DNA of 64,000 nt, taken from assembly GCF_041886205.1 (NCBI RefSeq), contig NZ_CP169029.1. One strand, written 5' to 3'. The position numbers are program-made. Position 1 is the first letter of the stretch; every line of letters starts with the position of its first letter. Shown piece after piece: positions 10,032 through 13,000 of the stretch. This stretch comes from Escherichia coli. GTDB taxonomy: Bacteria; Pseudomonadota; Gammaproteobacteria; Enterobacterales; Enterobacteriaceae.

Positions 10032-13000
10032 AAGGAAAAATCTTTTCCACCGCATTCTCATCATTCCCTGCCAGTGCCTTCAGTTGCTGACGGGTAATGC
10101 GGGTAAACACCACACCATACGCCCAGGCCAGGTTCAACCGTCCCTTATACTGACCGTCATTCTGCCGTAAGCACGGGTCTGCAGGTAAGGCATTAACCGT
10201 ATCACAGGCATAACGACGAACCTGCACCAGCGGATTTATTTCTGATTTCAGAATCCCGTCGGTTTCCAGCGTGACCTGCTCCTGGTTCGCCTTACGCAGC
10301 GTGGAAACCGTCCAGTCCTTAACCTCCAGAAATACCAGCCCGTTCTCCGGGTCAATAATGACAAAATCCGGATGCCGGTTTTTTCGTCCCACCGGAATAT
10401 CGTACCAGACAAGGCAGTCATCGTTCAGAAAGCGCTCCAGTCGTAAAGCCACCCTCCTCTCTCCGGGCGTCATTCTCTCCTCAGTGGACGCCGATACATT
10501 TATCAGTTTCGCCATAACACTCTCCTGCCACCCGATAAAAATATAACTGCCGGTATATTCCGTGCAGACAAAATATGTCGGATACTTTTTTTAAAACAGA
10601 CATAAATCCGGTTTCACAACAGGTGAAATCATCCGGACCAGCCCCCCTGGCCGGAAATTCACTGACTGAACGCGCCATAAATATCCGTGGCTTACACAGT
10701 AAAGCCACACCTGAATATTGTTAAATAACAGGCTCATAATCAAAATCACAAAAATATCTTTTCCATCCTGACTACCCTCACCAGGGCAGCCAGGATAAAA
10801 AATCAGACATGATAATAAGATGAATTGTCCACAAACTGCTGTTGCTTCAGATGGCGCAGCAACACCCTGCCCTCCGGCATAAATGTTGTTCCGTAACGAA
10901 CCAGTCCTGCGTCTTTAAGTTCTGCATCAATGACATAATGCAACTCACCTGGCTGAGTCTGTTCCGGCATCGTCACGTCGACGCGCTTAATACGTGGCTC
11001 ATACTTCAGCAGAACATCTGAAAGCACGCGCATCAGTTGATGCACCGTCCCCGGCATGCCCTGCAAAATGGTTGTCATATCCGGCAGCCCATAATCCGTT
11101 GTATCTGCTGAACATGACCGTAATTATTCCTGGTGTGGTGCCGCACTTCTTCGTAGGTGCAGCTGCAGGGGTATTCGGTAATGCAACGGGTGGACGTCGT
11201 GGTGCGATTTTGGGTGCCTTCGCTCAGGGCTTGCTTATTACCTTCCTGCCAGTATTCTTATTGCCGGTGCTGGGTGATATTGGTTTTGCTAACACCACCT
11301 TCAGTGATGCTGACTTTGGCGCACTGGGTATTTTGTTAGGGATTATCGTTCGCTAATACTTTGATGACATTAATATCCTCCAGGATTTCAGGAACGTGGA
11401 GGATATTAATTCCTCTTATTTTTTTCATTTTTCTTTCTTCCAGTCAGGACTGCATTTGATCAATCGCAAGCGCCCCGAGAAGTACGTAGCGTAAGGATTA
11501 TTTTACAGCTGAGAAGTTCCAGGGCAGCAGTTCATGCACACGGTTCGACGGCCAGTCATTGATCTTCACAATCACCTCGCGTAAAAAGCGGGGTAAGACT
11601 GCTCATCCAGCTCATCTCCACAGGTAATAATTCAACGCCAATGGCAGAAGAGGTCGTTACCGGAAGACGCCGCGAAACACGCCCTTCGTTCTGCCAGAGC
11701 CTGAGCCATTTGAAAATAACATTATCATTGACGCCATTTTCACGTGCAATCTGTGCAACACAAGCTCCAGGTTGTGATGCCAGTTCCACCATACGAAGTT
11801 TGAATTCATTCGAATAGTTTTTACGAGGTTCTTTTCGCCAGTCCTGTAATTCCATACTTAGATGTCCGTCTATATCAGATGGGCGTCTAAGTTACCAATT
11901 CTCGTCTGATGGCTACATACGGCGGTCAGTTTACGCTTACGGGTTATCTGTCTGGAGATTCAACTCTGTTTCCTCACAGGAGCTCTGTCATGGCTGATAA
12001 ATATACCGAAGCCGCTGTTGTGGGTGGCGTGGATACACATAAAGATCTGCACGTTGCTGCTGTCGTAGATGAGAACAATAAAGTCCTTGGGACCCGGTAT
12101 TTCTCCACAACACGACAAGGTTACCGGCAGATGCTGGCCTGGATGTAAGCGTACAGCGAGGGCCGTATTGACGGGGATGTGTTATTCAGCTGGCAGTGCT
12201 ATGCGCCACGGAAGCAGTTCGCTGACCCGGTTGACCGGCCAGTCTGCTATGATGCCAAACACATGGCGAAGGTAGCTTTCTGGATCCACGTCATTCAGTT
12301 TGCACGTCCCGATCAGGCTGTACAGTAGCGCTCCCCGCTCACCACCATGGTCAGAGCCGAAGAACAGGAAGTTTTTACGACCCAGACTGACCGCCCGCAG
12401 GGCATTTTCAGCGATGTTGTTGTCGATTTCCACCCAGCCATCGTTCGCATAGTACGTCAGTGCCGGCCACTGGTTAAGTGCGTACGCGAACGCCTTCGCC
12501 ACCATCAGGCTGGACAGGGGACTTTCACCCCCGAGCTGCTGAACATGCCCGGCACACAAAGAAGATCTCGGCTCAGTGGCCGGGATTAGTTATACAATTA
12601 TCTGATTGATTTTTAATATATCTTTTCTTAAATCATCGTTAATATCTGACGGTTCTAGCTGGTTTATAAGTTGCCTTATTTGGGTAAAGGTACTTTTCTG
12701 ATCTTTTAGATCTTCTCCTTTTATCGTTGATAAAGCTGCAATTAGTTCACCATCGTAATATTCACCCGCTAACGGCTCTTTAGTTAGAACTTCCAACACT
12801 CTTGGCATCAACTGATCAATACATAAATTTTGTCGGATAGCGCGGCAAAGATCTTCCACTGTTAACTTTTCAAGAGGCACATCTATGATACGTTCGAACC
12901 AGAGTTCAAGCGGTGATTGTTGCTCAGGCTCTTTTGTCATATTGATGTTTCCAATCAATTTACGTAAGGTAATCATATTCCATATCCTTTCAAGGCTGAT

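What the first reader, a model, noticed from the sequence alone, without database searches (positions are those of the whole stretch)
10803..11356. Truncated tssE abutting a PTS-permease C-terminal fragment and a strong terminator
A 5'-truncated gp25/TssE gene (minus strand) meets a plus-strand fragment resembling the tail of a PTS EIIC permease, followed by a 14-bp-stem terminator. Together with the ImpA_N protein it indicates a T6SS cluster degraded by insertions.
Basis: partly seen in the sequence, partly recalled or inferred. Interest (0 to 1): 0.3.

Follow-up and report, generated by a model that had tools for sequence, protein, structure and literature searches.

The report
Dead tssE–PTS permease gene junction
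Two broken gene ends, the tail of a type VI secretion baseplate gene and the tail of a sugar-transport permease gene, are joined head-to-head in an E. coli genomic island; this is an ordinary scar of DNA rearrangement, already annotated as pseudogenes in a sequenced relative.

Summary
Window 10803-11098 (minus strand) is the 3' two-thirds of tssE: codons 55-151 of 151, 97% identical to an intact E. coli TssE. Window 11097-11356 (plus strand) is the last 85 codons of a 418-codon UlaA/SgaT-type PTS EIIC gene, 98% identical. A 14-bp-stem hairpin with a T-run follows; it is that operon's native downstream element.

The two fragments meet at a clean junction with a 2-bp overlap (CG) and no IS end. 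Together with the intact tagA (ImpA_N+VasL, 7307-8686), tssE' is the 3' tip of a Sci-1/T6SS-1 cluster. No other T6SS core gene is in the 64-kb window.

"Degraded by insertions" is not supported. The NERD+UvrD helicase between tssE and tagA also sits beside fully intact T6SS-1 clusters. The loss comes from one non-homologous joining event, either a deletion or a duplication-type junction. The PTS piece is its other endpoint, not an insert.

The junction is lineage-specific. It occurs in 1 of 5,426 complete E. coli genomes (JML285, where PGAP calls both pieces pseudogenes) and in 7 of 7 informative draft or metagenome contigs. This is an ordinary, already annotated feature of low interest.

The parts
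7307..8686 (-). tagA, a TssA-like accessory gene (ImpA_N + hydrophobic segment + VasL). It is an intact 459-aa ORF with a GTG start.
   Evidence: Pfam ImpA_N E 3.6e-17 and VasL E 1.9e-37. The most hydrophobic 19-mer is at residues 239-257. It aligns in a single frame to A19, 55989 and SCU-171 and is frameshifted in M3 and Bongo. It lies at the 3' end of T6SS-1 in 55989 and SCU-171.
8728..10515 (-). NERD+UvrD-type SF1 helicase/nuclease (595 aa). It is cargo in the variable slot between tssE and tagA.
   Evidence: Pfam NERD, UvrD-helicase and UvrD_C. PADLOC candidate C3a187 'NERD+UvrD', E 6.9e-140, full length. It is 94% identical to the '3'-5' exonuclease' next to the intact T6SS-1 of SCU-171.
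10759..10802 (-). Terminator-like hairpin immediately after the tssE stop codon.
   Evidence: Consensus scan: 20-pair stem, 4-nt loop, then GATATTTTTG. Homology to the DNA downstream of A19 tssE runs from window 10701.
10803..11098 (-). tssE 3' remnant: codons 55-151 plus the stop codon. The 5' 54 codons and the promoter side are missing.
   Evidence: DNA is 93.7% identical to A19 tssE and 94.3% to 55989 tssE, ending at 11098. PGAP annotates it as a pseudogene 'missing N-terminus' in JML285.
11097..11098 (.). Recombination junction: a 2-bp overlap (CG) shared by both parental sequences, with no IS end.
   Evidence: Three-way alignment of the window with the intact tssE loci (L005, L006) and the intact IIC loci (L002, L003, L004).
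11097..11356 (+). 3' remnant of a UlaA/SgaT-type PTS EIIC gene: codons 334-418 plus the stop codon.
   Evidence: DNA is 96.8% identical to the chromosomal operons and 98.7% to the plasmid-borne operons. PGAP annotates it as a pseudogene 'missing N-terminus' in JML285.
10994..11356 (+). Mechanical chimeric ORF of 120 aa with a GTG start. It is antisense to tssE' and then in frame with the IIC tail. An internal ATG at 11114 gives an 80-aa ORF. There is no evidence of expression.
   Evidence: ORF list. No promoter-like site lies upstream on the plus strand.
11369..11426 (+). Native 3' hairpin and T-run of the PTS operon. The 14-bp stem is 11369-11382/11397-11410 and the T-run is 11417-11426.
   Evidence: Fold of -21.3 kcal/mol, z = -3.5. 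The stem is invariant downstream of intact IIC genes in M3, Bongo, H10407 and an IncFIB plasmid. No Rfam family matches.
11556..11855 (-). IS-derived 99-aa transposase ORF (HTH_Tnp_1) that normally follows the PTS operon. It contains the switch from JML285-like to STEC434-like DNA.
   Evidence: Pfam HTH_Tnp_1 E 3.9e-12. The window is identical to JML285 up to 11672 and about 69% identical afterwards. STEC434-like sequence runs from about 11599.

Best explanation
The region is a non-functional recombination scar inside a mosaic E. coli genomic island.

**Ancestral state (shown in other strains).** A Sci-1/T6SS-1 cluster ended with ...tssG-tssJ-tssE-[defence-type cargo]-tagA. The same kind of island also carried an accessory LacI-IIA-IIB-IIC PTS operon with its own terminator and an IS-derived transposase ORF.

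**The event (inferred).** One illegitimate, non-homologous joining event fused codon 55 of tssE to codon 334 of the IIC gene, with only 2 bp of overlap. Both genes lost their 5' parts, so their broken 5' ends face each other. The event removed tssJ through tssB and the LacI-IIA-IIB-5'IIC part of the operon from this locus.

**Most likely topology.** A simple deletion between a T6SS-1 module and a PTS operon lying on its tssB-proximal side, as when related island modules sit in tandem. The order tagA<exo<...LacI<PTS> exists in strain Bongo.

**Consequences.**
- Neither fragment can make a functional protein. tssE' lacks its first 54 codons and its operon. IIC' is about one fifth of a polytopic permease and has no IIA/IIB partners.
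- The hairpin is simply the PTS operon's native terminator carried along.
- tagA and the NERD+UvrD helicase survive intact.

**Inheritance.** The scar is inherited within a lineage. The DNA to its right was later reshuffled by recombination within IS-derived sequence.
For: - **Identity and extent of the fragments:**
- **Exact breakpoint:** a 2-bp overlap with no IS end.
- **Intact reference layouts:** 55989, SCU-171, A19; intact PTS operons in M3, Bongo, H10407 and a plasmid.
- **No other T6SS-1 or PTS protein encoded in the window:** tblastn with 27 proteins.
- **Both sides run in the same orientation as in the reference loci.** This fits a deletion (Bongo order) or a duplication-type join (SCU-171 order), but not an inversion.
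- **Real and inherited:**
  - The junction is 100% identical in the complete genome of JML285, where PGAP marks both pieces as pseudogenes.
  - The junction 24-mer is present in 7 of 7 informative independent contigs from NCBI, ENA and Logan.
- **Native terminator:** the hairpin is invariant downstream of intact IIC genes.
- **Later reshuffling:** the right flank differs between the window and JML285 from 11673 onward.
Against: - No genome was found that shows the exact predicted parent, that is, a full T6SS-1 with its tssB side facing LacI-PTS. The deletion topology is therefore inferred, not shown.
- A 2-bp overlap is expected by chance about 1 time in 16, so it says little about the mechanism.
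- Both fragments are free of stops and frameshifts and are 97-98% identical to intact proteins. Decay since the event is therefore minimal, and expression of truncated or chimeric products was not tested.
- Whether the strain has another T6SS elsewhere could not be checked from a 64-kb window.
Confidence: 0.85

Rival explanations
1. The junction is a tandem-duplication or excised-circle junction rather than a deletion. It would start from the common order PTS>tnp<...tagA<exo<tssE<T6SS, as in SCU-171. Joining mid-tssE back to mid-IIC is exactly the novel joint of a tandem duplication of the IIC3'...tssE3' segment, or of a circle of that segment re-inserted elsewhere. The other copy was later lost or separated.
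For: - The order in SCU-171, M3 and H10407 places the PTS operon on the tagA side of T6SS-1. From that order only a duplication- or circle-type join gives tssE3'|IIC3'.
- JML285 holds a second match to the IIC part of the 120-bp junction probe (2 places) but only one match to the tssE part.
Against: - No second copy of the segment, no IIC 5' part and no tssE 5' part is in the 64-kb window.
- The DNA left of tagA in the window is IS66/ISL3/katG, not tnp-IIC.
- The alternative order needed for a simple deletion does exist in nature (Bongo).
Confidence: 0.3
2. One reading: the T6SS cluster was broken up by insertions, with the PTS fragment and the NERD helicase being inserted DNA that split tssE from the rest of the cluster.
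For: - The island is full of IS66, ISL3, IS3, IS110 and IS100 debris.
- The helicase is indeed an insertion relative to A19, where tssE is followed directly by a small gene and then tagA.
Against: - The helicase sits in the same slot beside complete T6SS-1 clusters.
- The PTS piece starts in the middle of a gene, with no IS end at the junction.
- No tssJ/G/F/A/M...B sequence resumes anywhere in the 53 kb to the right, as it would after a simple insertion.
Confidence: 0.05
3. The junction created something functional. Candidates are a truncated gp25-like TssE' (the 91-aa ORF with an internal ATG at 11078) or a small chimeric membrane protein (80-120 aa, 10994/11114-11356), retained by selection.
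For: - Both fragments keep open frames and 97-98% identity to intact proteins.
- The configuration is conserved in all contigs of the lineage that were examined.
Against: - No promoter-like site was found upstream of either ORF.
- Conservation is equally explained by recent common descent: the sequence is 100% identical to JML285 across 10112-11672.
- The TssE fragment scores below the family cut-offs.
- The IIC tail is 85 of 418 residues.
- PGAP calls both pieces pseudogenes.
Confidence: 0.03
4. The junction is an assembly artefact, that is, a chimeric contig.
For: The region is repeat- and IS-rich.
Against: The same junction is found in a complete genome and in seven independent NCBI, ENA and Logan contigs.
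Confidence: 0.01

Closest known systems
3' end of the E. coli Sci-1 / T6SS-1 cluster (EAEC 55989, SCU-171, A19): ...tssF-tssG-tssJ-tssE-[cargo]-tagA
   Same: tssE', the NERD+UvrD helicase and tagA are orthologous and in the same order and orientation. TssE is 90-97% identical, the helicase 94%, and TagA 82-84%.
   Different: Everything upstream of tssE codon 55 is missing. The small 'hyp306' gene between the helicase and tagA is also missing. The GIY-YIG gene of 55989 is absent.
Accessory LacI-IIA-IIB-IIC PTS operon (UlaA/SgaT-type EIIC, Pfam EIIC-GAT) found next to the aryl-polyene-like fatty-acid synthase genes in E. coli islands (M3, H10407, SCU-171, Bongo) and on IncFIB plasmids
   Same: The last 85 codons, the stop codon, the 14-bp hairpin and the following IS-derived transposase ORF are collinear and 96.8-98.7% identical.
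   Different: LacI, IIA, IIB and the first 333 codons of IIC are absent from the window. The T-run after the hairpin has two C>T changes in this lineage.
TagA, the class B TssA-like protein (ImpA_N + membrane segment + VasL), described as a T6SS accessory protein in E. coli and V. cholerae (PMC6745524, PMC7545191)
   Same: The domain architecture matches.
   Different: Here tagA is an orphan with no T6SS core genes in the window. Its function was not tested.
Other decayed T6SS-1 remnants in E. coli islands (M3: frameshifted tssE beside a CDI locus; Bongo: tssE replaced by an IS3 fragment)
   Same: They show the same kind of erosion of the cluster, with the tagA-helicase end left behind.
   Different: The breakpoints and partners differ. 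Only this lineage has the tssE codon 55 | IIC codon 334 junction.

Membership tests
TssE / gp25-like baseplate subunit (TIGR03357, PF04965) | Whole-protein match to the family model above the curated cut-off | tested here: not met
   The fragment scores 45.0 bits against a cut-off of 53.2 (NCBIfam) and 26.8 against 27.2 (Pfam). The intact A19 TssE scores 89.4 bits. Homology is nonetheless certain from 97% identity to residues 55-151.
TssE / gp25-like baseplate subunit (TIGR03357, PF04965) | Complete coding sequence with its N-terminal third | tested here: not met
   Residues 1-54 of 151 are missing. PGAP annotates it as a pseudogene in JML285.
TssE / gp25-like baseplate subunit (TIGR03357, PF04965) | Encoded with the other baseplate and core genes (tssF, tssG, tssK, tssB/C and others) | tested here: not met
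   tblastn with the SCU-171 T6SS-1 proteins finds none of them in the 64-kb window. The rest of the genome is not available.
PTS EIIC of the ascorbate/galactitol type (UlaA/SgaT; PF03611 EIIC-GAT; NF006919) | Sequence match to the family model | tested here: met
   Pfam gives 79.8 bits against a cut-off of 24.2, but only over profile positions 331-394 of 394. The NCBIfam equivalog models score 111-132 bits, far below their whole-protein cut-offs of 380-890.
PTS EIIC of the ascorbate/galactitol type (UlaA/SgaT; PF03611 EIIC-GAT; NF006919) | Full-length polytopic permease | tested here: not met
   Only residues 334-418 of 418 are present.
PTS EIIC of the ascorbate/galactitol type (UlaA/SgaT; PF03611 EIIC-GAT; NF006919) | Partner IIA and IIB genes in the operon | tested here: not met
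   There is no tblastn hit for IIA, IIB or LacI in the window.
Rho-independent (intrinsic) terminator | Stable stem-loop just downstream of a stop codon | tested here: met
   A 14-bp stem begins 13 nt after the IIC stop codon: -21.3 kcal/mol, z = -3.5. It is invariant in intact operons.
Rho-independent (intrinsic) terminator | U-run directly following the stem | tested here: inconclusive
   The T-run starts 6 nt after the 14-bp stem. An alternative 6-bp hairpin (11398-11416) abuts it directly. The two hairpins share one arm, so which one forms is unknown.
Rho-independent (intrinsic) terminator | Termination activity | not testable with these tools
   This needs transcript 3'-end mapping.
TagA (class B TssA-like T6SS accessory protein) | [quoted passage not shown] | tested here: met
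   ImpA_N covers residues 17-119 and VasL covers residues 310-451. The hydrophobic peak is at residues 239-257. The architecture is as defined in PMC6745524.
TagA (class B TssA-like T6SS accessory protein) | Works with a cognate T6SS (TssA and the sheath) | tested here: not met
   No tssA, tssB or tssC is in the window. The genome-wide status is unknown.

The most novel reading that the evidence does not exclude
What this lineage keeps is not a T6SS relic as such. It is the variable cargo slot between tssE and tagA, a small hotspot for anti-phage genes: the NERD+UvrD candidate C3a187 here, and a PD-Lambda-1-like GIY-YIG nuclease plus NERD+UvrD in EAEC 55989. On this reading the slot outlives the secretion system, and tssE' and tagA persist as its flanks. 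A still weaker variant is that the truncated TssE' or the chimeric IIC' ORF is expressed and has some activity.
Probability: 0.25. Interest if true: 0.3.

Novelty: already known. Interest (0 to 1): 0.08.

Why it matters
It matters little. The region documents how the E. coli T6SS-1 cluster erodes in genomic islands: a single non-homologous junction removes all core genes and leaves the tagA end behind. It also gives a precise 24-nt junction sequence that can serve as a lineage marker. The practical value is for annotation. tssE' and IIC' should be called pseudogenes, the hairpin belongs to the PTS operon, and an ImpA_N/VasL gene here does not indicate a working T6SS. The one mildly interesting by-product is the variable defence-gene slot between tssE and tagA.

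Tried and rejected
- **Inversion as the origin of the head-to-head fragments.** Rejected. Both sides of the junction run in the same direction as in the reference loci, which only a deletion or a duplication-type join can produce.
- **IS-mediated event at the junction.** The base-by-base alignment shows no IS end or target duplication.
- **A shared breakpoint with plasmid-borne PTS operons.** Plasmid hits start at window 11097 only because the window's homology starts there. The plasmid operon is full length.
- **An Rfam family for the hairpin or the junction region.** Only a chance miRNA hit appeared, with E 0.62.
- **Exact junction 24-mer in other collections.** There were 0 hits in GTDB species-representative genomes and 0 in JGI metagenome contigs.
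- **Locating a second PTS or T6SS copy in JML285.** I fetched the region where pheV lies in K-12 coordinates. The JML285 chromosome is rearranged and the stretch held only core genes, so I abandoned this.
- **PADLOC on TagA.** No hit.
- **A malformed translation request.** One search used the wrong frame and asked for a range one base too long. Neither returned information.
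Full report
**1. What is in the sequence**

Reading the region and listing ORFs shows three things:
- a minus-strand ORF at 10803-11078;
- a plus-strand ORF at 10994-11356, with an internal ATG at 11114;
- an inverted repeat just downstream.

The minus-strand product matches the C-terminal half of the gp25/TssE family. Pfam GPW_gp25 matches at positions 43-93 of 96 (E 4.6e-6). NCBIfam TIGR03357 matches at positions 50-113 of 133 (E 7.7e-12).

The plus-strand product matches the extreme C-terminus of the EIIC-GAT (UlaA/SgaT-type) permease family. Pfam matches at positions 331-394 of 394 (E 2.8e-22). NCBIfam 'PTS ascorbate transporter subunit IIC' gives E 2.5e-38.

Alignment to intact orthologues fixes the extents:
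- The tssE piece is residues 55-151 of the 151-aa TssE of strain A19, 97% identical with no stop or frameshift.
- The IIC piece is residues 334-418 of the 418-aa IIC of strain M3, 98% identical.

The observation and its coordinates are correct.

**2. The junction**

Local BLAST of window 10401-11900 against the reference loci shows tssE homology ending at 11098 and IIC homology starting at 11097. The base-by-base three-way comparison shows a clean switch with only the dinucleotide CG shared. Nothing at the switch resembles an IS terminus or a target duplication.

Both sides run in the same direction as in the reference loci. The join is therefore of the deletion or duplication type, not an inversion.

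**3. The hairpin**

The RNA fold gives a 14-bp stem (11369-11382/11397-11410) with a 14-nt loop, -21.3 kcal/mol and z = -3.5. A T-run starts 6 nt after the stem. The consensus scan also reports a 6-bp hairpin (11398-11416) that abuts the T-run directly.

The stem is invariant at the same place downstream of intact IIC genes in M3, Bongo, H10407 and an IncFIB plasmid. It is therefore the PTS operon's own 3' element and not a product of the junction. No Rfam family matches it.

tssE also has its own terminator-like hairpin just after its stop codon, at 10802-10759.

**4. Where the pieces come from**

In EAEC 55989 and in SCU-171 the orthologous tssE is the last core gene of a complete Sci-1/T6SS-1 cluster. 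The layout is tssB, tssC, tssK, tssL, hcp, tssH, vgrG, PAAR, tssM, tssA, tssF, tssG, tssJ, tssE. A variable stretch follows, and then the ImpA_N/VasL gene. In A19 tssE is followed by only a small gene and then the ImpA_N/VasL gene.

The window's 459-aa ORF at 7307-8686 has the following features:
- ImpA_N at residues 17-119 and VasL at residues 310-451;
- a hydrophobic peak at residues 239-257.

This is the TagA (class B TssA-like) architecture described in PMC6745524. It is intact here and in A19, 55989 and SCU-171, and frameshifted in M3 and Bongo.

The gene between tagA and tssE' (8728-10515) is a NERD+UvrD helicase. It is 94% identical to the '3'-5' exonuclease' in the same slot of SCU-171. 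It also matches the PADLOC candidate C3a187 over its full length (E 6.9e-140).

The intact PTS operon has the layout LacI, IIA, IIB, IIC, hairpin, IS-derived transposase ORF. It is found in M3, SCU-171, Bongo and H10407 (IS-disrupted in H10407) and on plasmids.

**5. Is any T6SS left?**

I ran tblastn with 27 proteins of the SCU-171 locus against the whole window. Only five things hit: the IIC tail, the transposase ORF, TagA/VasL, the helicase, and TssE residues 53-141. There is no hit for TssA, B, C, F, G, H, J, K, L, M, Hcp, VgrG, PAAR, IIA, IIB or LacI.

The rest of the genome could not be examined.

**6. Is the junction real, and how common is it?**

- The window is 100% identical to E. 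coli JML285 across the junction. PGAP annotates the two pieces there as pseudogenes: 'TssE ... missing N-terminus' and 'PTS transporter subunit IIC ... missing N-terminus'.
- A 120-bp probe across the junction is fully covered in only 1 of 5,426 complete E. coli genomes, and in no plasmid.
- The exact NERD helicase protein is on record in 130 blocks of the assembly collection. Seven of the eight places returned have enough flank to judge, and all seven carry the identical junction 24-mer. They come from four NCBI drafts, two ENA metagenome assemblies and one Logan assembly.
- The 24-mer is absent from GTDB species-representative genomes and from JGI metagenome contigs.

The junction is thus a real, inherited marker of one E. 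coli lineage and not an artefact.

**7. Later history**

- In JML285 an IS100 copy interrupts the helicase gene, and window 1-10120 lies about 165 kb away in inverted orientation. The window itself has the uninterrupted gene.
- To the right, the window is identical to JML285 up to 11672. It then switches, inside the IS-derived transposase ORF, to STEC434-like DNA. That DNA carries IS debris, orphan CdiA-CT/CdiI modules and a cdiBAI locus.
- The seven draft contigs have the JML285-type right flank.

The junction therefore predates these IS-mediated reshufflings.

**8. Mechanism**

*Shown:*
- Both fragments are 5'-truncated.
- The join is clean, with a 2-bp overlap.
- The parental genes exist intact in other strains.
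- The missing parts are not in the window.

*Inferred:* a single illegitimate recombination joined mid-tssE to mid-IIC. Two topologies fit.
- **Simple deletion.** If the PTS operon lay on the tssB-proximal side of the T6SS module, a simple deletion gives the junction. The order tagA<helicase<...LacI<PTS> exists in Bongo and would also arise from tandem island modules.
- **Duplication- or circle-type join.** If the order was the commoner PTS>tnp<...tagA<helicase<tssE<T6SS (SCU-171, M3), the junction is that of a tandem duplication or an excised circle.

I favour the deletion at roughly 0.5 against 0.3, but the window cannot decide between them.

'Degradation by insertions' is not supported. The helicase insertion coexists with intact clusters, and the PTS piece is an internal gene fragment.

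**9. Function**

Neither fragment is expected to work.
- TssE' lacks a third of the protein and scores below the family cut-offs.
- IIC' is one fifth of a permease and has no IIA/IIB partners.
- No promoter-like site precedes either ORF.

The lack of further decay is explained by recency. Expression was not tested.

**10. Verdict**

This is an ordinary, already annotated pseudogene junction in a mosaic genomic island. Its inference of a decayed T6SS is right, and its proposed cause (insertions) is not.

The only mildly interesting by-product is the variable, defence-gene-bearing slot between tssE and tagA.

Noticed in passing
window 8728-10515; L006 13027-14229 and 11046-12791; L008 16676-19858; L005 14732-15102: The stretch between tssE and tagA at the 3' end of E. 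coli T6SS-1 varies between strains and holds defence-type genes. It is empty in A19. The window has only a NERD+UvrD helicase (PADLOC candidate C3a187, E 7e-140). 55989 and SCU-171 have a PD-Lambda-1-like GIY-YIG nuclease (E 4e-88) plus the NERD+UvrD gene. M3 has NERD+UvrD plus an Ail/Lom gene. It looks like a small cargo hotspot that outlives the secretion system.
   Followed up: partly
window 8684-8720 versus L006 10646-11038: The small 101-aa gene between the helicase and tagA in 55989, SCU-171, M3 and A19 is missing in the window. 393 bp are replaced by 37 bp.
   Followed up: partly
window 7307-8686; L007 13304-14656: PGAP annotates the ImpA_N/VasL gene as two or three separate partial pseudogenes in JML285 and 55989. 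However, the window sequence, which is 99.8% identical to JML285, has one uninterrupted 459-aa ORF with a GTG start, and 55989, SCU-171 and A19 align to it in a single frame. This is probably an annotation artefact for TagA in E. coli.
   Followed up: partly
window 11599-11672 (inside ORF 11556-11855): There is a mosaic breakpoint here. The window is identical to JML285 up to 11672 and then only about 69% identical, switching to STEC434-like DNA. Recombination within IS-derived transposase sequence placed a different right flank next to the junction.
   Followed up: yes
window 12590-27919: A contact-dependent inhibition locus lies here. It comprises cdiB (26153-27919; ShlB/POTRA domains), cdiA (16361-26140; 3259 aa), a likely cdiI (15879-16364), and downstream orphan modules. 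The orphan modules include a VENN pre-toxin fragment (12973-13896) with a CdiI_3 immunity gene (12590-12976) and a DUF2569 gene (13931-14452). This 16-kb block is absent from JML285 and from the draft contigs that share the junction.
   Followed up: partly
L001 17748-20016 and L007 14725-18005 (JML285): In JML285 two IS100 copies flank an inversion of about 165 kb that splits the NERD+UvrD helicase gene. The window has the uninterrupted gene, so it comes from a related strain or assembly without that inversion.
   Followed up: partly
window 11417-11426 versus L002/L003/L004/L009: The T-run after the PTS hairpin reads TTATTTTTTTC in the window and JML285 but TTATTTTCTCC downstream of intact operons. 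These two C>T changes lengthen the T-run in the lineage where the operon is dead.
   Followed up: no
window 29621-32215: An 864-aa ORF combines UvrD-like/SF1 helicase motifs with ankyrin repeats. It sits in the island between the CDI locus and YfjI-type or inovirus Gp2-type island genes. I did not study it further.
   Followed up: no
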